A stretch of DNA of 64,000 bases from Rhodoferax sp. (GTDB taxonomy: Bacteria; Pseudomonadota; Gammaproteobacteria; Burkholderiales; Burkholderiaceae_C). The stretch spans positions 726-64,725 of the forward strand of contig NZ_JAABQC010000002.1 of assembly GCF_011391645.1 (NCBI RefSeq), given 5' to 3'. Made by a program: the position numbers and the translations under genes. This document shows positions 25,508 through 33,581 of this stretch, piece by piece. The notes beneath the pieces were generated by a model. The model had not been told where the DNA came from. It saw nothing but the letters and a program-made list of their open reading frames with translations, and ran no database searches. The first letter of the stretch is position 1; every line of letters starts with the position of its first letter.

Positions 25508-27340
25508 ATGACCAACTCACTTATATCTATCGTGGCTATTTCCCCAATTCAAGATTACCTTCAAACCTTGATCGCCCGTTTCAGCGGGTTGAGCGAGGGT
25601 GAGGTGGCTGATTACATTCCCGAACTCAAGCTGGCAAACCCCGACTGGTTCGGGATTTGTATCGCCACGCAAGACGGTCATATCTACGAAGTGGGCGACA
25701 GCCAGCAGCACTTCACCATTCAATCAGTCTCCAAACCCCTGACTTACGGGCGGGCACTGGAGCAGCATGGCGAAGCAGCCGTGCTTAAAAAAATTGGCAT
25801 CGAACCTTCGGGCGATGCTTTTAATGCCATCAGCCTTCATCCGACAAGCGGCACACCGCTGAATCCCTTGATCAACGCAGGCGCCATTGCCGCTTGCAGC
25901 CTGATTCCCGGTGACAGCATGCAGGAAAAATCAGCCGTCATTCTGGAGACCTTTTCCCGCTACGCCGGCCGTGCGCTTGACATCGACCACACGGTCTATC
26001 AGTCAGAAAGCGACACCGGCCACCGCAACCGCGCCATCGGCTGGATGCTGCGCAACTTCTCCGTGATCGAATGCGACCCCACGGCAACGTTGGAAGCGTA
26101 TTTTCAGCAATGCGCCATACGTGTCACCTGCCGTGATCTGGCCATCATGGGCGCAACGCTTGCCAATGGGGGCCTCAACCCGATCACCGGCAAGCGGGCG
26201 ATCCCTGAAAAATATGTTGCCAATGTGCTTTCGGTGATGGCCACCTGCGGCATGTACGATGCTTCGGGAGAATGGCTTTACGACACCGGCATGCCAGCCA
26301 AGAGCGGTGTGGGCGGTGGCATCATGGCCGTGCTGCCGGGTCGACTGGGGATTGCCGTGTTTTCACCCAGGCTCGATCAGCAAGGCAACAGTGTTCGCGG
26401 ACTTGCCACGTGCCAGGCTTTGGCTGACGATCTGGAACTGCACATGTTTGGTGCATCGCAGCCGGCCATTCCCGCCATTCGCAGAGCCACCTCGCGCAAA
26501 TCCGTCAAGTCCAACCTGCGCCGCACCCAGGCGGCCAATGACTACCTCTTGCGTGTTGGTAAGAAGCTGCGCGTGTACCAACTGCATGGCGCACTGACTT
26601 TTGCCTCCATTGAGCCAGTTGCCCGAACCATGGCAGACGAATCTGCCCAGACTGAGGTTTTTATCGTGAACCTCAGACTGGTCCATCGCATTGACCGCGC
26701 CAGCGTGAATATTCTGGCTGAGCTGCGCAGAGATTTGATCGGTACTGGCAAGTTGTTGTTTTTTACCGAATCAGGAAACTTCTGGCAACCATTAATAGAC
26801 GCTGGCGTTGATCGGGAGGCCTTCTTTGCCGACGACGACTTTGCGTTGGAGTGTGGCGAGAACCATTTGCTTGGCGACCGCTTTCCGAACCTGGCCTGGG
26901 GCAGCGAGACCCCGTTGGAAAAATGCGACCTCTTGCTTGAGCTCAACCCGGATGAACTGGCCTTGATGGATCGGCTTTTGTTTTATCGAAATTATCTTAA
27001 AGGGCAAAACATCATCACCGCTGGCCAAGCCTCCAACGAACTGTTTGTTTTGACCAAGGGATCGGCCATGGTCAGCATGGCAACCCAGGACGGCATTGCC
27101 CGCTTTGACGCATTTTCTTCAGGTGCAGCCTTTGGCGAAGTCGCTTTTCTGGACCGGTCTCCGCGCTCGGCGAACGTGACCGCGCTTAGTCCGGTGACGT
27201 GCCGGATACTTACCCGCGAAGCGTTTGACCAGCTTGACACACTAGCGCCAGCCATCAAGATCCACTTGCTGAGCAACCTGGCAGGCAGGTTGACCACCAT
27301 GCTGCGCCATAACGGGCGGGAACTGGCATCTCTCAAGTAG
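25508..27340 (+). CDS. glsA: Glutaminase A fused to STAS and cNMP-binding domains
   Basis: FTIQSVSKP (SxxK), EPSG, NPLINAGAI, YFQQC, CGMYD, PAKSGVGGG; then a STAS-like segment; then FGEVAFLDRSPRSANV (phosphate-binding cassette). Confidence 0.9.
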   Translation: MTNSLISIVAISPIQDYLQTLIARFSGLSEGEVADYIPELKLANPDWFGICIATQDGHIYEVGDSQQHFTIQSVSKPLTYGRALEQHGEAAVLKKIGIEPSGDAFNAISLHPTSGTPLNPLINAGAIAACSLIPGDSMQEKSAVILETFSRYAGRALDIDHTVYQSESDTGHRNRAIGWMLRNFSVIECDPTATLEAYFQQCAIRVTCRDLAIMGATLANGGLNPITGKRAIPEKYVANVLSVMATCGMYDASGEWLYDTGMPAKSGVGGGIMAVLPGRLGIAVFSPRLDQQGNSVRGLATCQALADDLELHMFGASQPAIPAIRRATSRKSVKSNLRRTQAANDYLLRVGKKLRVYQLHGALTFASIEPVARTMADESAQTEVFIVNLRLVHRIDRASVNILAELRRDLIGTGKLLFFTESGNFWQPLIDAGVDREAFFADDDFALECGENHLLGDRFPNLAWGSETPLEKCDLLLELNPDELALMDRLLFYRNYLKGQNIITAGQASNELFVLTKGSAMVSMATQDGIARFDAFSSGAAFGEVAFLDRSPRSANVTALSPVTCRILTREAFDQLDTLAPAIKIHLLSNLAGRLTTMLRHNGRELASLK

Positions 27341-27415: not shown

Positions 27416-28786
27416 GTGGCAATTGCAACAATCAACCGCATCATTATTTTGTTTGATGGTGCATTTCGGTCCTTGGCGGTCGATGTGCCGATGGTGAAAG
27501 TGGAGCAACTGGCCATGCTGATCCAGACTGCCATGAGTGGGAAAAAGCGGGCTTTTCACACCACCAAGCATGTTTTGCATTTGAGCCGGGGGATGAAGCC
27601 GGAACAGGTGCTGGCTGCGCTGTTTCATGATGTGGTGTATTTCCAACTCGATGGCGGCTTGTCGGGACAGACCGCCACGCTGCTTGACGGCATCACACGA
27701 TCAGAAAATGACGCCCTGCTGCTTGGTGAAATCAAGCCCGAAGACAAAGCGGTTGCGCTGTGTGCCGATCTTTTTGGCTTCGTGCCAGGTCAAACCTTGC
27801 CACTGCAAAGGGGAATGAATGAGTTTCTCAGTGCGGCCTTGGCAGCCCGTCTTCTTCAGCACTATCTGAGCGATGCGCAACTGATCGCCGTATTTGCCTG
27901 TATCGAAATGACGATCCCTTTCCGGGCACCGGACGAGAGCGGACGGACAGCCGCCCAGTTGCTTGCACAGCGTGTGTTGGCCTTTTGCCACAAACCAGGG
28001 GGCTTTCCTTCACTTTCGGAACAGGACGCGGCACGATTTGTTCGGACGGTTGTCACGGATGCCGTCGTTTTTGCCAACCGGGATCTTTCCGGATTCACCG
28101 ACCCCAACCCTGGACGGTGCTTGTCAAACACGCTTTTGCTGATTGAGGAGTCAATGCCTCATTATGCGGCGCTGAGTTTCAGTTCGATTCAGGAGTACCG
28201 GGACGCCCTGCTGCGCATGGATGCCTTCTTGAGCAAGCTTAACCCGAAGCTTGTCTGCCAGAGTTACGACAACCTGCCAGATGCAAATACCCGGCTGGAA
28301 ATGGACGCCGCAGTGGCTAAGAACATCGCGTTTTCATGCGATTACCTAGCCGCCATACTGGCCTCGATGGCCGTCGTCGAGGCATTGGCACTGAGCACCG
28401 GGTCTGACTGCCCAATCGGCATGTTTCTCGGCGACAAGTCGCAGTCCTTGAACGAACCAGACCAGATCGAAGAACTTCTGCCGGTACCGCCTGCCGGGCA
28501 GCCGGTCAACGCCGAGTTGCTGCAACTTTTTGGAAATGACCACTTGCTGGATTCGATCAATGACCTGACGGCATCGCCTCTGACGGAATTCGTCTACCGG
28601 TTTCTGGGTCAACCCGGAACCCAGCGTGCGCTTGGGCAGGCCAAACAGATGTTTGACGGGCATTTGTCGGCGCGCGAATTCCTGAAGTCCCTGGATCGCA
28701 ACATGGTCCTCGCCATCGTTCATGCGTGTGCGCAAATTGCCGTGTCCCGGCGGGGCGCGCTCCTGGAACTCGAACAAAATCTATAG
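27416..28786 (+). CDS. Uncharacterised protein with an HD-like metal-binding motif
   Basis: GAGGAG RBS before a GTG start; RAFHTTKH...LAALFHDVVY...ANRDLSGF. The CDS is well supported; the function is inferred. Confidence 0.7.
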   Translation: MAIATINRIIILFDGAFRSLAVDVPMVKVEQLAMLIQTAMSGKKRAFHTTKHVLHLSRGMKPEQVLAALFHDVVYFQLDGGLSGQTATLLDGITRSENDALLLGEIKPEDKAVALCADLFGFVPGQTLPLQRGMNEFLSAALAARLLQHYLSDAQLIAVFACIEMTIPFRAPDESGRTAAQLLAQRVLAFCHKPGGFPSLSEQDAARFVRTVVTDAVVFANRDLSGFTDPNPGRCLSNTLLLIEESMPHYAALSFSSIQEYRDALLRMDAFLSKLNPKLVCQSYDNLPDANTRLEMDAAVAKNIAFSCDYLAAILASMAVVEALALSTGSDCPIGMFLGDKSQSLNEPDQIEELLPVPPAGQPVNAELLQLFGNDHLLDSINDLTASPLTEFVYRFLGQPGTQRALGQAKQMFDGHLSAREFLKSLDRNMVLAIVHACAQIAVSRRGALLELEQNL

Positions 28787-28904: not shown

Positions 28905-29378
28905 ATGACACATAGCATTCGGCAATTTCTAACCGCCAGCGCGATTCTGATGCTGGCTTCGGCTGCAGCCCTGTCCCAAGCCCACGCCGAGGTCGTCGGA
29001 TCCGTCAAGACTGTCACCGGTGAAGCCTGGGTGATCACAGCCCAGCAGCGCGTCAAGGCACAGGTTGGCACTCCCGTGAATTTGGGCAGTCAGCTCAAGA
29101 CCGCCAAGGCATCCAGCATGGGCGTGACGTTCAAAGACAACACGCTGATGTCCTTCGGGCCCGACACCGAAATGACGGTTGACGAGTTTCTTTTTGCCCC
29201 GACCCAGGGGCAGCTCAAATTGGGCACCCGGTTGGACAAGGGCAGCCTGAATTACGTCTCCGGCCTGATCGCCAAGCTCAAGCCCGAAGCGGTTACTGTC
29301 AAGACACCCACCGGCACCATTGGTGTGCGTGGCACCCAGTTCCTGCTCAATGTGGATGAGCCTGCCAAAGTCAACTGA
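28905..29378 (+). CDS. Periplasmic FecR-domain protein (no anti-sigma N-terminus)
   Basis: Sec signal ending AHA; FKDNTLMSFGPDT and VKTPTGTIGVRGTQF motifs. Confidence 0.85.
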   Translation: MTHSIRQFLTASAILMLASAAALSQAHAEVVGSVKTVTGEAWVITAQQRVKAQVGTPVNLGSQLKTAKASSMGVTFKDNTLMSFGPDTEMTVDEFLFAPTQGQLKLGTRLDKGSLNYVSGLIAKLKPEAVTVKTPTGTIGVRGTQFLLNVDEPAKVN

Positions 29379-29414: not shown

Positions 29415-31370
29415 ATGACTACAAAAACGAAATTGACGGCATTGACGCTGGCCCTGCTGGGCTGCTGGGGCGCCCAGGCCCAGGCCATGCCAGAGGCACT
29501 GGTCAAAGCTGCCCGCCAGGCGGTTCTGACCAATCCTGAAGTGCAGGCGCGCTGGAACGGTTTCAAGGCCGCCGGGCAAGAACAGTCGACTGCGCGCGGT
29601 GGCTATTTTCCCCAGCTTGATTTGAGAGCATCGGTGGGCAGTGAAAACCGCACCACCCCCGCCACCGATTACGGCCGCTACGACATCAACGGCGCCCAGC
29701 TCACACTCAACCAGATGCTGTTTGACGGCCTGTTCACACCCAGCGAAGTCAAACGTCTGGGCTATGCCAAGCTCGTTCGTTACTATGAGCTGGCAGAAAT
29801 TTCCGAAACCGCCGCCCTGGAAGCGGTGCGCGCTTATGTTGACGTGGCGCGATTCCAGGAACAGGTGGAAGCCGCCACGCAAAACTATGCCGAGCACAAA
29901 CAATCTGCCCAGTTGGTTGAGGAGCGCAACAAGGGCGGCGTTGGACGTCGCGCCGACGTCGAGCAGGCCAGTGGTCGCCTGGCGCAGGCCGAATCCAGCT
30001 TGCTGGCCGAACTGACCAATCTGCACGACGCCAGCGCGCGCTACCTGCGTGTGGTCGGCGAAAAACCGCCCGGCAAGTTGCCAAGCCTGCCCGAATCACT
30101 CAGTCTGGGCCGCATGCCAGCCAATACCGAAGCACTGTTGCAGCAAGGTTTGTCGGGCAGCCCGACTCTGAATGCAGCGCTTGAAAACACACGCGCCTAC
30201 CAGCAAGCCATTGCCACCCGGCAAGCGGCTTTCATGCCGCGTGTTGATCTGCGTGGCTACGTCAGCCAGGACGAAAATCTCTCGGGGGATTTGGGCACGA
30301 CCGATGTCAAAGGGGTTGAACTGGTTCTCAACTACAACCTTTACCGTGGTGGCGCGGACAGCGCCAGGAAGCGCCAGGCAGAAGACCAGCGGGCCCAGGC
30401 ACGCGACCTGCAGGAGAAAGCCTGCCGCGACGTGCGCCAGACGCTGACCATCGCCTACAGTGACGTGCAAAACCTGAGCGAGCAACAGCGCTACCTGAAT
30501 CAATACCGCCTGGCAACTGAAAAATCGCGCGAAGCCTATCGCCAGCAGTTCGACATCGGTCAACGCACCCTGCTCGATGTGCTGGACAGTCAAAAAGAAT
30601 ACTACGAAGCCAGCCGCTCTTACATCAATGCCCGTCATGGCGAGGTGCTGGCGCAGGCGCGCACGCTGGCCGGCATGGGTCAACTGGTGGCGGCGATGGG
30701 TGTCCAGCGCCCCGATATGCCAAGCGCCGCCGATGCAGGACAGGACCGGGACCACACCGACCCGGCTGATTTATGCCCGCTGGACACCAGCGTGGTGGAC
30801 ACCGTGGATGCCATCAAGGCCAGATTTGTGACCAAGGGCCCAGGCTCCTACGTGGTGCTGATCCCGAGTCCGGACGGCAGTATCGGACGGGTGACGGTGC
30901 AGGGCAAGCAGGGCGAGCAGGTTCTGAACAAGGCCGGACAAGCCGTCTCTCTGGATGGCATCACCCCAGTGCCGATCGACGTGAGCGAGCAAAAAGTGAA
31001 GGCGGATTTTGGCTCGGCGATCGCTGCGCGTCCACCCGTGCCTGAACAGTTTGTGTTTTATTTCAAGTTGGGGAGCACGCAACTGACCAAAGAATCCCAG
31101 GCGCTGCTACCTAGCGTGCTGGAAAAAGTGCGCGCGCGCCAGACCCTGGACATTTGGTTGATCGGCCACACGGACACCACAGGCGACGCCAAACGCAACG
31201 ATGCGCTGGGACTCAAACGGGCGCAGGTGCTGGCCAGGAATTTTGAGAAACTCGGGATCAAGGACCTGAATGTGACTGTCGAGTCCTACGGCGAGCGAAG
31301 CCCCCTGGTGGCTACTCCTGACAACACGCCCGAACAGCGAAACCGCCGCGCCGAAGCAACTTTGCGCTAG
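29415..31370 (+). CDS. TolC-family outer membrane protein fused to a C-terminal OmpA-like peptidoglycan-binding domain
   Basis: TolC-like part: AVLTNPEV, GGYFPQLDL, QMLFDG, QFDIGQRTLLDVLD. OmpA part: IGHTDTTG, LGLKRA, SYGE, NRRAE. Confidence 0.85.
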   Translation: MTTKTKLTALTLALLGCWGAQAQAMPEALVKAARQAVLTNPEVQARWNGFKAAGQEQSTARGGYFPQLDLRASVGSENRTTPATDYGRYDINGAQLTLNQMLFDGLFTPSEVKRLGYAKLVRYYELAEISETAALEAVRAYVDVARFQEQVEAATQNYAEHKQSAQLVEERNKGGVGRRADVEQASGRLAQAESSLLAELTNLHDASARYLRVVGEKPPGKLPSLPESLSLGRMPANTEALLQQGLSGSPTLNAALENTRAYQQAIATRQAAFMPRVDLRGYVSQDENLSGDLGTTDVKGVELVLNYNLYRGGADSARKRQAEDQRAQARDLQEKACRDVRQTLTIAYSDVQNLSEQQRYLNQYRLATEKSREAYRQQFDIGQRTLLDVLDSQKEYYEASRSYINARHGEVLAQARTLAGMGQLVAAMGVQRPDMPSAADAGQDRDHTDPADLCPLDTSVVDTVDAIKARFVTKGPGSYVVLIPSPDGSIGRVTVQGKQGEQVLNKAGQAVSLDGITPVPIDVSEQKVKADFGSAIAARPPVPEQFVFYFKLGSTQLTKESQALLPSVLEKVRARQTLDIWLIGHTDTTGDAKRNDALGLKRAQVLARNFEKLGIKDLNVTVESYGERSPLVATPDNTPEQRNRRAEATLR

Positions 31371-31396: not shown

Positions 31397-33553
31397 CTAC
31401 TTCTCGGTCATCACGATCAGGTTGCCTGTCTGATTTTCTCGCAGCCGCTGCAGGTGCAATTTGACCAGCGGATCCATCGGCCGCTCCAGGGCCAGTTGCT
31501 CAAAGGCGGCGCGCGCCGCCAATGGGTCCTGAGTCAACAAGGCATAGGCTGCAGCATATTGCGGATCATCCGGCGACGCGCCCGGGATCTCCAAACCTTC
31601 GTGGATGGGTTGAAACACCATCAGCGGCTTCGACTTGCCTTTGAGCACCAGTTGACCCACAGGGCGGGTCACCACCCCGGTGCAGCCCGACAAGGTTGCC
31701 TCGGAGACACACACCCGCGTGCCCAGATGCTTGTTGACTGCTTCAAGGCGCGATGCGGTGTTGACCGGGTCTCCGAGCGCACGGTAATCAAAGATGGTTG
31801 AACCACCAAAATTACCGACAATGACTTCACCCGTGTGAATTCCGATGCGGGTATGGCCAAAAGGGATGCCTTTGGCTTGCAAGTCACCTGCATACTTGGT
31901 GGCAAAGCGCTGCATGGCCAACGCGCAGTTCAGCGCCCGCTGCCGGTGATCGGGCTGGTGCACTGGCGCCGAAAACATGATGGCCACCGCGTCGCCGACA
32001 ATCCGGTCCAGCGTGCCGTTGAATTGAAATGCAATGGCGATCATTTCATCCAGATAGGCATTCAGCAGCGCGACCGCGTCCGCTGGATCGATCTTTTCCA
32101 TCAGGCTGGTGAAACCCGCCAGATCGGTAAAGATAAAGCTGCATTCCTGACGTTTGCCGCCAAGTTCAAGTTCTGCCGGATGGTCCACGATGTAGGACAC
32201 CAGATTGGGAGACACATAACGTGAAAAGGCCTGTTTGACAAAGCGCTGGCTTCGTTCGCTGGAAAAATGGTGCATCAAACTTGACAACAGGAAGGCAGCA
32301 AAAATACCCAACGCGGGCGTGACCGGGTCCAGCAGCAACTGGTAATCGGTAAAGGCCACCCAGCCACCCCAGATAATGCCCGCAATCACCCCCAGCGTGA
32401 GTAACGCGGAGGCGACTGCTCCGGTCACCAGCCCCAGAATTGCCAGCGTCATGCTGCCGATGATGATGGTCAATGCCTCAATCGAATTGGCCCAGGCCGG
32501 CCGTTGCAGGAAACTGTCGGTCAGCACCTGCTCCATCATCTGAGCGTGCGCCTCGACCCCCGGCATGACGCCGCCCAGCGGGCTGAAGCGCAAGTCCATC
32601 AGCCCCTGCGCCGAGGTTCCGACCAGCATCAGATTGCCCTGCAACTCGGCATCGGGGATTTCTCCCGCCAAAATTCTCCAGGCCGCAATGGTGCGCTCCT
32701 TGACCGGCCTGGTGTAATACACCCACGATTCGCCTGCGGCGGTAGTGGGCACCGTGAATTGGCCGATCTTCACCTCTGTCATGCCAACGCCCGGGGTTTC
32801 GGAGGTGCGCACCATGTAGTTTTGCGCGCCCTGACCAACCCGCAACACCTCGGCCGCCAGCGAAGGCACCAGGGTGTCGCCCAGGCGCAGCAGCAACGGC
32901 ACACGGCGCACCACGCCGTCAGTGTCCGGAACAAAGGTCATGACACCATTGCCTGCAGCCGCTGCGCTCAGCAGGGGCAAGGACGGCACGGCACTGGCAA
33001 AAGCATGGGCAAAGGGCAGCGCCGGCTCGCCCATCATCACGTAACGGTACTTCTCGTCGGCCAGGGTCGCCCCCCTGGCTCCCTGGCGCTCCAGGGCATA
33101 ACCAAGCACCACGCCGCCGGGCTTCAGGGCAGCGGCAAGCAGCTCATCGTGATCAGGCAGGCTGGCAACGCTGCGCTGCGCTCTGGCAGGCAGGTTCCAA
33201 ATGCCCAGCATGGCTTTGGGCGAGGTGCGGTCCGGCTCGGCAAACAGCACGTCGAAGCCGACAGCCGCCACCTCGGCCTGGCGCAGTCGCTCCACCAGTT
33301 CGGCAATCCGGCTGCGCGGCCAGGGCCATTGGCCGATTCGGGTGAGGCTTTCCTCATCGATATCGATGATCCGCACCGGCGCCGGCTGGTAGACCCGCGG
33401 ACGCGCCTGCTGGTACTGGTCAAAGACCGAATTACGCAGGGTTTGCAATAGCGGCGGGTCGATCAACAGCAGCGCCGCGCCGATGAACACTGCCAGCGTT
33501 GGCACCAGCATGTTCAAGCTCAGGGTAAACCAGCGGCGCAGCTTTTTGATCAT
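31397..33553 (-). CDS. CHASE2-domain membrane-bound class III nucleotide cyclase
   Basis: TM; CHASE2 (IDIDEESL..GQWPWPR, GVEAHAQ); 3 TMs; cyclase domain (FTDLAGFT, GDAV, RIGIHTG, VNTASRLE). Confidence 0.9.
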   Translation of the reverse strand: MIKKLRRWFTLSLNMLVPTLAVFIGAALLLIDPPLLQTLRNSVFDQYQQARPRVYQPAPVRIIDIDEESLTRIGQWPWPRSRIAELVERLRQAEVAAVGFDVLFAEPDRTSPKAMLGIWNLPARAQRSVASLPDHDELLAAALKPGGVVLGYALERQGARGATLADEKYRYVMMGEPALPFAHAFASAVPSLPLLSAAAAGNGVMTFVPDTDGVVRRVPLLLRLGDTLVPSLAAEVLRVGQGAQNYMVRTSETPGVGMTEVKIGQFTVPTTAAGESWVYYTRPVKERTIAAWRILAGEIPDAELQGNLMLVGTSAQGLMDLRFSPLGGVMPGVEAHAQMMEQVLTDSFLQRPAWANSIEALTIIIGSMTLAILGLVTGAVASALLTLGVIAGIIWGGWVAFTDYQLLLDPVTPALGIFAAFLLSSLMHHFSSERSQRFVKQAFSRYVSPNLVSYIVDHPAELELGGKRQECSFIFTDLAGFTSLMEKIDPADAVALLNAYLDEMIAIAFQFNGTLDRIVGDAVAIMFSAPVHQPDHRQRALNCALAMQRFATKYAGDLQAKGIPFGHTRIGIHTGEVIVGNFGGSTIFDYRALGDPVNTASRLEAVNKHLGTRVCVSEATLSGCTGVVTRPVGQLVLKGKSKPLMVFQPIHEGLEIPGASPDDPQYAAAYALLTQDPLAARAAFEQLALERPMDPLVKLHLQRLRENQTGNLIVMTEK

Positions 33554-33581
33554 AAGAAAATACCCAGCCGCAGAGACTGGG
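33554..33581 (-). terminator. Probable terminator hairpin after the tRNA
   Basis: Minus strand CCCAGTC-TCTGC-GGCTGGG followed by TATTTTCTT. Confidence 0.5.

What the first reader, a model, noticed from the sequence alone, without database searches (positions are those of the whole stretch)
31769..32008. Cyclase has Arg/Arg at both base-selecting positions: possibly a non-cAMP, non-cGMP product
Seen: the catalytic residues are intact (FTDLAGFT Asp, GDAV Asp, VNTASR Asn/Arg). The segments read LDRIVGDAV and FDYRALGDPVN. Known: adenylate cyclases usually read DK(F/Y)IGD and EYTVIGD, with Lys and Thr/Asp selecting adenine; guanylate cyclases use Glu and Cys/Ser. Aligned by eye, both positions here are Arg. 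Inference: two H-bond donors suit carbonyl-rich bases, so the product could be cUMP, cGMP or another nucleotide. That would make this an orthogonal signalling channel.
Basis: partly seen in the sequence, partly recalled or inferred. Interest (0 to 1): 0.8.

Follow-up and report, generated by a model that had tools for sequence, protein, structure and literature searches.

The report
Receptor cyclase with Arg/Arg base-selecting pair
This membrane sensor enzyme makes a cyclic-nucleotide signal, and its two base-choosing residues are both arginine, a pattern kept across a large, apparently unstudied bacterial clade; which nucleotide it makes is unknown, and the genomic evidence leans towards an ordinary one such as cAMP.

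Summary
The gene at 31397-33553 (minus strand) encodes a CHASE2, transmembrane, class III cyclase. All catalytic residues are intact (D477, D521, N598, R602, K640). Sequence and structure alignment to CyaB, Cya2 and CyaC places Arg517 and Arg591 exactly at the Lys/Glu and Thr/Gly base-selecting positions.

This is not a one-off. In a 313-sequence tree, 145 Arg/Arg sequences form one clade of 150. That clade lies among Lys/Thr CHASE2 cyclases, and the same scaffold also has Glu/Ser (guanylate-like) and Ala/Ala branches. The Arg/Arg clade is tightly linked to FecR and OmpA envelope genes (75 and 66 of 92 loci). About a third of loci also carry cNMP-binding effectors, here a glutaminase-STAS-cNMP protein and a PDE-like protein.

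The product cannot be settled by computation.
- For a new product: the pocket is remodelled, Arg sits at the Lys position in the cCMP cyclase EaPycC, and every Arg/Arg genome checked also has other cyclases.
- Against an orthogonal channel: the effectors are generic, and the glutaminase effector keeps the same binding cassette in eight genomes that lack Arg/Arg cyclases.

My odds: cAMP about 0.4, cGMP about 0.15, pyrimidine or other about 0.25. I found no characterised member.

The parts
31397..33553 (-). CHASE2, transmembrane, class III nucleotide cyclase gene (718-aa ORF). The start may instead be Met15 at 33511, giving 704 aa as in the 99%-identical homologues.
   Evidence: ORF and translation. 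Pfam CHASE2 3.2e-61 and Guanylate_cyc 1.1e-18. Homologues of 704 to 718 aa. A terminator-like hairpin at 33563-33581 abuts the first ATG.
32444..33475 (-). Periplasmic CHASE2 sensor domain (residues 27-370), flanked by an N-terminal transmembrane helix (about residues 8-39).
   Evidence: Pfam match and hydropathy scan.
32282..32485 (-). Transmembrane segments linking sensor and cyclase (about residues 357-424).
   Evidence: Hydropathy scan.
31619..32149 (-). Class III (IIIb-like) cyclase catalytic domain, residues 469-645.
   Evidence: Pfam. PDB sequence hits: Cya2 fusion 6FHT 8.7e-30, CyaB 3R5G 1.7e-29, Cya2 2W01 4.5e-25. Model pLDDT 91.5. Foldseek CyaB TM 0.87, rmsd 1.9 A.
32003..32005 (-). 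Arg517 codon (CGG): first base-selecting position (Lys in adenylate cyclases, Glu in guanylate cyclases), four residues before metal Asp521.
   Evidence: Arg in 42 of 42 Arg/Arg representatives against Lys in 96 of 96 Lys/Thr representatives.
31781..31783 (-). Arg591 codon (CGT): second base-selecting position (Thr or Asp in adenylate cyclases; Cys, Ser or Gly in guanylate cyclases), seven residues before Asn598.
   Evidence: DYRALGD is present in all 121 sequences (the window protein and its 120 closest homologues).
32123..32125 (-). Asp477, metal-binding (FTDLAGFT).
   Evidence: Invariant in alignments A1 and A4.
31991..31993 (-). Asp521, metal-binding (IVGDAV).
   Evidence: Invariant.
31748..31762 (-). 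Asn598 to Arg602 (NTASR), the transition-state-stabilising pair.
   Evidence: Invariant. The quintet D/D/N/R/K is kept in 284 of 313 family members.
28905..29378 (+). Secreted FecR-domain protein (157 aa), the conserved partner of Arg/Arg cyclases.
   Evidence: Pfam FecR 1.7e-11. A FecR gene lies within 5 kb in 75 of 92 Arg/Arg loci against 2 of 31 Lys/Thr loci.
29415..31370 (+). Outer-membrane protein: TolC-like OEP fused to a linker and an OmpA domain (651 aa). It is convergent with the cyclase, 27 bp apart.
   Evidence: Pfam OEP 2.3e-46 and OmpA 4.1e-15. The OmpA-type module is present in 66 of 92 Arg/Arg loci, and the OEP fusion in 11.
27416..28786 (+). 456-aa protein with invariant H48, H52, H71-D72, N221 and D223. 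Its predicted fold weakly resembles class I cyclic-nucleotide phosphodiesterases, so it is a candidate signal breaker.
   Evidence: No Pfam or PDB sequence hit. Alignment A3. Model pLDDT 83.9. Foldseek top hits are almost all PDE catalytic domains, at E 0.02-0.5 and TM 0.3-0.45. It is adjacent in 10 of 92 Arg/Arg loci.
25508..27340 (+). Glutaminase-STAS-cNMP-binding protein (610 aa), a candidate reader of the cyclase product.
   Evidence: Pfam Glutaminase 4.4e-120 and cNMP_binding 4.4e-15. Canonical cassette FGEVAFLDRSPRSA. Within 5 kb of 12 of 92 Arg/Arg loci and 0 of 31 Lys/Thr loci, and directly downstream of the cyclase in L023, L033, L041, L084 and L093.

Best explanation
The gene encodes a catalytically competent, homodimeric class III (IIIb-like) receptor nucleotide cyclase. 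A periplasmic CHASE2 domain senses an envelope signal, probably relayed by the co-conserved secreted FecR-domain protein and an OmpA-anchored outer-membrane protein. The cytoplasmic domain cyclises an NTP to a 3',5'-cNMP. That messenger is read by ordinary cNMP-binding-domain effectors, here a glutaminase-STAS-cNMP enzyme, and possibly removed by the neighbouring PDE-like protein. The base pocket is a derived variant of the Lys/Thr adenylate-cyclase pocket, in which Thr became Arg591 and Lys became Arg517. My most likely reading is that it still makes a purine cNMP, cAMP first, perhaps with relaxed specificity: Arg517 would replace Lys at adenine N1, and Arg591 would stack on the base or bond N7. 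Shown here: domain architecture, intact catalytic residues, the register of the two Arg, clade monophyly and gene neighbourhood. Inferred: dimer, topology, signal relay and product.
For: Architecture and catalytic residues. The Arg/Arg clade lies among Lys/Thr CHASE2 cyclases, and a few Lys/Arg forms sit inside it, so Lys-to-Arg is a conservative step. The characterised S. meliloti-type CHASE2 cyclase next to a FecR gene is Lys/Ser and those enzymes make cAMP (PMC5498481 and PMC13001267), so the module type is a cAMP module elsewhere. Neighbouring readers are generic cNMP-binding proteins with canonical G-E...R-[ST]-A cassettes: glutaminase, SulP transporter, patatin, EAL, PilZ, Na/H exchanger, rhodanese. 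Orthologues of the glutaminase-STAS-cNMP effector (up to 65% identical, same cassette and C-helix) occur in 8 genomes whose best match to the Arg/Arg domain is at most 40% identical. From my own knowledge, not tested here: the mycobacterial cyclases Rv1900c (Asn/His) and Rv0386 (Gln/Asn) lack the Lys/Asp pair and still make mainly cAMP.
Against: Thr or Asp normally accepts a hydrogen bond from adenine N6, and Arg cannot do this. The pair is essentially invariant across the clade (145 Arg/Arg among its 150 members) and comes with other clade-specific changes next to the pocket: His593 to Leu, His or Val524 to Ala, Asn or Gly528 to Ser, Cys471. This looks like a change in function rather than drift. 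Arg at the same position (four before the second metal Asp) is a specificity residue of the cCMP cyclase EaPycC. All 12 Arg/Arg genomes checked also have at least one other class III cyclase, so the enzyme is not simply the cell's only adenylate cyclase. Gene adjacency does not prove that the neighbouring cNMP-binding proteins read this enzyme's product.
Confidence: 0.4

Rival explanations
1. New base specificity. The Arg/Arg pocket selects a carbonyl-rich or small base (UTP or CTP, or ITP or XTP), so the clade makes cUMP, cCMP or another non-canonical cNMP as a housekeeping envelope-stress messenger, unrelated to phage defence.
For: Two donor side chains fit O2 and O4 of uracil or N3 and O2 of cytosine. 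EaPycC, a cCMP cyclase, has specificity residue R142 four residues before metal D146, and R142A abolishes activity. The pair is invariant and the pocket is remodelled. The same scaffold already has Lys/Thr (adenylate) and Glu/Ser or Glu/Ala (guanylate-type) branches, so Arg/Arg is a third fixed state. Arg/Arg genomes always have other cyclases.
Against: The domain is no closer to Pycsar cyclase models than its Lys/Thr relative is (69.9 against 109.1 bits for PDLC00734). The effectors are generic cNMP-binding proteins with no Arg/Arg-specific change. The glutaminase effector is conserved with the same cassette in genomes without Arg/Arg cyclases. The weak fold matches of the neighbouring PDE-like protein are to purine cNMP phosphodiesterases. 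No biochemical data exist.
Confidence: 0.25
2. Guanylate cyclase by a different solution. Arg591, with or without Arg517, binds guanine O6 and N7, and the enzyme makes cGMP.
For: Bidentate binding of Arg to guanine O6 and N7 is common, for example Arg140 of PucTIR. The closest solved relative is the CHASE2-type guanylate cyclase Cya2. Some neighbouring cassettes read R-T-A.
Against: Arg at the Glu position would face the N1-H and N2-H donors of guanine in the canonical pose. The family already has canonical Glu/Ser and Glu/Ala members, which sit next to Crp-like proteins with R-T-A cassettes. Most cassettes next to Arg/Arg cyclases read R-S-A.
Confidence: 0.15
3. Promiscuous or weakly selective cyclase. 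Loss of the Lys/Thr pair relaxes selectivity, so the product mix follows cellular NTP pools.
For: Work cited (PMC4215837) examines how exchanging these residues changes substrate preference in a class III cyclase; I did not read its results. Position 517 tolerates Lys in a few clade members.
Against: Near-invariance of both Arg over three bacterial classes argues for a defined role.
Confidence: 0.1
4. Not a working cyclase. The domain is a regulatory pseudo-enzyme, or the Arg pair binds an anion such as bicarbonate rather than the base.
For: Class IIIb cyclases are known to respond to bicarbonate or CO2 (my own knowledge). Two adjacent guanidinium groups could hold an anion.
Against: All five catalytic residues are invariant. 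The domain is 75 to 80% identical across orders, as expected for an active enzyme.
Confidence: 0.05

Closest known systems
Pseudomonas aeruginosa CyaB (PDB 3R5G) and Spirulina CyaC (1WC0/1WC1), class IIIb adenylate cyclases
   Same: Same fold (TM 0.87, rmsd 1.9 A to CyaB) with 29 to 34% identity. Same metal Asp pair, Asn/Arg pair and homodimer-type domain.
   Different: They have Lys and Thr at the base-selecting positions, where this protein has Arg517 and Arg591. Their sensor domains also differ: MASE2 in CyaB (my own knowledge) against CHASE2 here.
Synechocystis Cya2 (PDB 2W01), a CHASE2-type guanylate cyclase
   Same: Among the best sequence and fold matches (4.5e-25; TM about 0.8). The parent protein has the same CHASE2, membrane, cyclase architecture (my own knowledge).
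   Different: Cya2 has Glu and Gly at the two positions and makes cGMP. Here both are Arg.
Sinorhizobium meliloti CyaD1, CyaD2 and CyaK (CHASE2 adenylate cyclases working with NsrA and Clr)
   Same: CHASE2 receptor cyclase with an adjacent FecR-domain gene, and an outer-membrane partner needed for signal perception.
   Different: The S. meliloti copy I could read (L186, probably CyaD2) is Lys/Ser and only about 39% identical. Its product is cAMP. Its partner NsrA is a beta-barrel, not an OmpA or TolC fusion.
Pycsar pyrimidine cyclases (EaPycC, BcPycC, PaPycC 6YII)
   Same: Class III fold. EaPycC has Arg four residues before the second metal Asp, the position of Arg517, as a CTP-specificity residue. 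PaPycC is hit at 5.3e-8.
   Different: This protein has no TIR or membrane suicide effector next to it and sits in no defence context. It is a membrane receptor with CHASE2. It scores lower against PycC models than a Lys/Thr relative does.

Membership tests
Class III nucleotidyl cyclase (PF00211) | Profile match above the curated cut-off | tested here: met
   67.9 bits against a cut-off of 21.9.
Class III nucleotidyl cyclase (PF00211) | Two metal-binding Asp residues, plus the transition-state Asn and Arg | tested here: met
   D477, D521, N598 and R602 are aligned to solved cyclases and invariant in A1 and A4.
Class III nucleotidyl cyclase (PF00211) | Cyclase catalytic fold | tested here: met
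   Model pLDDT 91.5. Foldseek: CyaB E 5e-17, TM 0.87, rmsd 1.9 A.
Class III nucleotidyl cyclase (PF00211) | Formation of a 3',5'-cNMP from an NTP | not testable with these tools
   Needs an enzyme assay.
Class IIIb adenylate cyclase | Lys four residues before the second metal Asp, and Thr seven residues before the Asn | tested here: not met
   Arg517 and Arg591.
Guanylate cyclase signature | Glu at the first position and Cys, Ser, Gly or Ala at the second | tested here: not met
   Arg/Arg here. Glu/Ser and Glu/Ala relatives exist on a separate branch.
CHASE2 receptor cyclase with FecR partner (S. meliloti CyaD type) | CHASE2 sensor between transmembrane helices, with a FecR-domain gene adjacent | tested here: met
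   FecR lies next to 75 of 92 Arg/Arg loci.
CHASE2 receptor cyclase with FecR partner (S. meliloti CyaD type) | Adenylate-type Lys/Ser or Lys/Thr pair and cAMP as product | tested here: not met
   L186 reads DKFIGD and NYSAVGD. The window reads DRIVGD and DYRALGD. The product was not testable.
Pycsar cyclase (PycC) | Operon with a cNMP-activated TIR or transmembrane suicide effector | tested here: not met
   The neighbours are FecR, OmpA/TolC, a PDE-like protein and a glutaminase. Effectors at other loci are metabolic or regulatory.
Pycsar cyclase (PycC) | Closer to PycC profiles than ordinary cyclases are | tested here: not met
   PDLC00734: 69.9 bits for this domain against 109.1 bits for a Lys/Thr relative.
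Pycsar cyclase (PycC) | Arg at the position four residues before the second metal Asp (as in EaPycC R142 and D146) | tested here: inconclusive
   Met by residue numbering taken from PMC11224242. I could not align the sequences directly.

The most novel reading that the evidence does not exclude
The Arg/Arg CHASE2 cyclases are a third specificity class of class III cyclases. They would make a messenger other than cAMP or cGMP, most plausibly cUMP or cCMP, in response to envelope signals. That would give hundreds of free-living Proteobacteria a housekeeping pyrimidine (or other non-canonical) cNMP pathway outside phage defence.
Probability: 0.22. Interest if true: 0.85.

Novelty: new variant of a known kind. 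Interest (0 to 1): 0.5.

Why it matters
Product prediction for class III cyclases rests on two residues, and annotation pipelines label this whole clade 'adenylate/guanylate cyclase'. The clade has a fixed third residue pair, is widespread, and sits in a conserved envelope-sensing module with identifiable readers and a candidate breaker. That makes it a clean test case. If the product is cAMP, the Lys/Thr rule needs a documented exception and a new binding mode. If it is another nucleotide, cyclic pyrimidine or other signalling would extend beyond phage defence. One LC-MS assay on a soluble domain decides which. Several cultured hosts carry the gene, including Hydrogenophaga defluvii, Aquaspirillum serpens, Rhodocyclus gracilis, Methylomicrobium lacus and Parasulfuritortus cantonensis.

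Tried and rejected
1. Reader co-variation. I aligned 66 cNMP-binding domains found next to Arg/Arg, Lys/Thr and Glu/Ser cyclases. No column separates the Arg/Arg neighbours. Cassettes read R-S-A or R-T-A in all groups, and only the four near-identical Glu/Ser neighbours are uniformly R-T-A. This is not informative for the product.

2. Phylogenetic profile. The Arg/Arg DNA motif occurs in 12 of 401 genomes of the order, and the full-length glutaminase-STAS-cNMP protein in 10 of 401. They overlap in only 2 genomes, one of which is the window's own. The effector is therefore not dedicated to Arg/Arg cyclases.

3. Looking for a genome in which the Arg/Arg enzyme is the only cyclase. None was found: 12 of 12 have at least two.

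4. Genomes that have the effector but no Arg/Arg cyclase carry 2 to 19 class III cyclases with many different pairs (Lys/Asp, Lys/Thr, Gln/Thr, Glu/Gly, Asp/Gly, Met/Thr), so no single producer can be assigned.

5. Literature. I found no paper in the held library on Arg/Arg cyclases or on a characterised member.

6. Pycsar membership: rejected.

7. Docking or a dimer model with NTP was not possible. The tools return no coordinates and accept only single native chains.

8. The 456-aa neighbour has no sequence-level family. Only a weak fold resemblance to PDEs was found.

9. An even sample of the class gave too few family members (12 of 300) for statistics.
Full report
**What is there**

The window carries a 718-aa ORF on the minus strand at 31397-33553.
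- Pfam finds a CHASE2 domain (residues 27-370, E 3.2e-61) and a class III cyclase domain (469-645, 67.9 bits against a cut-off of 21.9).
- Hydropathy shows one N-terminal helix and about three helices at residues 357-424. CHASE2 is therefore periplasmic and the cyclase cytoplasmic.
- A terminator-like hairpin of the upstream hrcA gene abuts the first ATG, and the 99%-identical homologues are 704 aa. The true start may be Met15 (33511). I number residues on the 718-aa ORF.

**Register**

HMMER alignments to solved cyclases are gap-free around both motifs.
- Arg517 (tldRivgd) lies on CyaB Lys, Cya2 Glu and CyaC Lys.
- Arg591 (fdyRalgdpvn) lies on CyaB Thr, Cya2 Gly and CyaC Thr.
- The metal residues Asp477 and Asp521, the transition-state pair Asn598 and Arg602, and Lys640 are present and invariant or nearly so in the family.
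- An AlphaFold2 model of residues 439-656 has pLDDT 91.5. It superposes on CyaB at rmsd 1.9 A with TM 0.87, then on Cya2, CyaC and the light-regulated cyclases.

**Is it a clade feature?**

Yes.
- The window protein and all 120 of its closest database homologues (75 to 99% identical in the domain; Rhodoferax, Comamonadaceae, Hydrogenophilaceae, Parasulfuritortus) have DYRALGD, and every one in which the first site could be read has R..GD.
- An exhaustive search of 50%-identity representatives gave 42 Arg/Arg and 96 Lys/Thr among the 149 aligned sequences (the query plus 148 of the 150 listed representatives).
- All 80 loci from species-representative genomes are Arg/Arg. They cover Beta- and Gammaproteobacteria and Syntrophaceae, and include cultured strains.
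- In a 313-sequence tree, the 145 Arg/Arg sequences form one clade of 150 (support 0.87). Three Lys/Arg, one Arg/Ser and one Lys/Gly sequence sit inside it.
- The same scaffold has a small Glu/Ser plus Glu/Ala branch and an Ala/Ala branch.
- Other residues also separate Arg/Arg from Lys/Thr: Cys471, Ala524 (His or Val), Ser528 (Asn or Gly), Val577, Leu593 (His), and loss of Arg587.
- R591 uses different Arg codons in different genomes, so selection acts on the protein.

The clade is sparse. It occurs in 12 of 401 genomes sampled across the order.

**Context**

In the window the cyclase is convergent with a TolC-like OEP-OmpA fusion (29415-31370). Upstream of that lie a secreted FecR-domain protein (28905-29378), a 456-aa unknown protein (27416-28786) and a glutaminase-STAS-cNMP-binding protein (25508-27340).

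Genes within 5 kb of the cyclase across loci:

| Neighbour | Arg/Arg loci (n=92) | Lys/Thr loci (n=31) |
|---|---|---|
| FecR | 75 | 2 |
| OmpA-type module | 66 | 1 |
| cNMP-binding protein | 33 | 7 |
| Glutaminase-STAS-cNMP | 12 | 0 |
| 456-aa protein | 10 | 0 |

Fisher p is 4e-14 for FecR and 4e-12 for OmpA. One caveat applies: the Lys/Thr loci come from shorter metagenome contigs.

Other readers next to Arg/Arg cyclases are varied:
- a SulP-STAS-cNMP transporter
- cNMP-patatin
- cNMP-EAL
- cNMP-PilZ
- a Na/H exchanger with a cNMP domain
- cNMP-rhodanese
- an MBL protein with two cNMP domains
- cNMP-SpoIIE partner-switching sets

The 456-aa protein has invariant H48, H52, H71-D72, N221 and D223. 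Its model (pLDDT 83.9) gives weak fold matches, almost all of them class I cyclic-nucleotide phosphodiesterases, at E 0.02-0.5 and TM 0.3-0.45. The locus therefore looks like a sense, make, read and break module.

**What does it make?**

This is not decidable here.

Arguments for a changed product:
- Arg cannot accept the adenine N6 hydrogen bond that Thr or Asp takes.
- The pair is fixed and the pocket is remodelled.
- The family already holds adenylate-type and guanylate-type signatures, so Arg/Arg is a third state.
- The cCMP cyclase EaPycC uses R142, four residues before metal D146, as a specificity residue.
- All 12 Arg/Arg genomes checked have further class III cyclases. The window's genome has a Lys/Asp cyclase-FHA protein.

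Arguments for an ordinary product:
- The clade descends from Lys/Thr enzymes. Lys-to-Arg is conservative and Lys/Arg forms exist.
- The readable S. meliloti CHASE2 cyclase next to a FecR gene is Lys/Ser, and that enzyme group makes cAMP. The module type is therefore a cAMP module elsewhere.
- Neighbouring cNMP-binding domains have canonical cassettes, and no column is specific to Arg/Arg neighbours.
- Orthologues of the glutaminase-STAS-cNMP effector, with the same cassette and C-helix, occur in eight genomes whose best match to the Arg/Arg domain is at most 40% identical.
- The domain is not closer to Pycsar cyclase profiles than a Lys/Thr relative is.

My odds are cAMP 0.4, cGMP 0.15, pyrimidine or other 0.25, promiscuous 0.1, inactive 0.05.

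**Comparison with what is known, and novelty**

The protein is a member of class III cyclases by profile, catalytic residues and fold. It fails the defining residue pair of both the IIIb adenylate and the guanylate signatures. It is not a Pycsar cyclase.

No paper in the held library describes an Arg/Arg cyclase. An earlier agent's note on another genome (e1-780133) also describes Arg/Arg CHASE2 cyclases as a large uncharacterised class. That is a lead, not independent evidence.

Non-canonical pairs are common in bacterial class III cyclases, which tempers the surprise.

**Verdict**

This is a real, conserved and apparently uncharacterised variant of a known enzyme kind. The claim of a new messenger is open and cheaply testable.

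Noticed in passing
window 27416-28786 (+): A 456-aa protein with no Pfam or PDB sequence match but invariant H48, H52, H71-D72, N221 and D223. Its AlphaFold2 model (pLDDT 83.9) gives weak Foldseek hits that are almost all class I cNMP phosphodiesterase catalytic domains (PDE9, PDE10, PDE2, rhodopsin-PDE; E 0.02-0.5, TM 0.3-0.45). It may be a remote bacterial PDE family. It lies next to Arg/Arg cyclases in 10 of 92 loci.
   Followed up: partly
L108, L109, L110, L113 (metagenome loci), cyclase at about 7500-9596 in L108: CHASE2 cyclases with a guanylate-type Glu/Ser pair (and Glu/Ala in L112). Each lies 1.4 to 2.4 kb downstream of a Crp-like cNMP-binding gene whose cassette reads R-T-A. These are candidate bacterial cGMP modules on the same scaffold.
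   Followed up: partly
L135, L138, L146: A small branch of CHASE2 cyclases with Ala/Ala at the two base-selecting positions and intact catalytic residues.
   Followed up: no
L023 14016-15800, and the cNMP-domain genes next to the cyclase in L033, L041, L039 and L032 (the first three scored as cNMP-SpoIIE): The cNMP-binding domains of the SpoIIE (PP2C) partner-switching phosphatases next to Arg/Arg cyclases lack the cassette Arg (they read ..TSAHV or ..VSAYV instead of ..RSA.V). They may not bind a cNMP in the usual way.
   Followed up: no
own genome contig C89 (L002 1492-2406, +): The only other class III cyclase in the window's 2.7-Mb genome is a 304-aa cyclase-FHA protein with an adenylate-type Lys/Asp pair. 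The genome has 20 cNMP-binding-domain matches (18 above the Pfam cut-off), which is many for two cyclases.
   Followed up: partly
window 33563-33581 (-): A terminator-like hairpin with a T-rich tail ends exactly at the first ATG of the cyclase ORF (33553). The closest homologues are annotated from Met15, so the start codon is uncertain.
   Followed up: partly
L025 1932-8800: In a related Rhodoferax-like metagenome contig, a block with filamentous-phage genes (Phage_CRI replication protein, Zot) and a resolvase sits between the NAD kinase gene and hrcA, just upstream of the cyclase locus. The window has no such block.
   Followed up: no
L186 (CP090106.1, 2201255-2213085): This S. meliloti Ak57 record is labelled pSymB but is 3.7 Mb long. 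Its CHASE2 cyclase next to FecR and cobU/cobW/cobN reads in two frames, so it has a frameshift or a sequencing error.
   Followed up: no
L063: An Arg/Arg cyclase 60% identical to the window's lies on a contig binned as Synechococcus sp. UW140. This is probably a binning contaminant from a proteobacterium.
   Followed up: no
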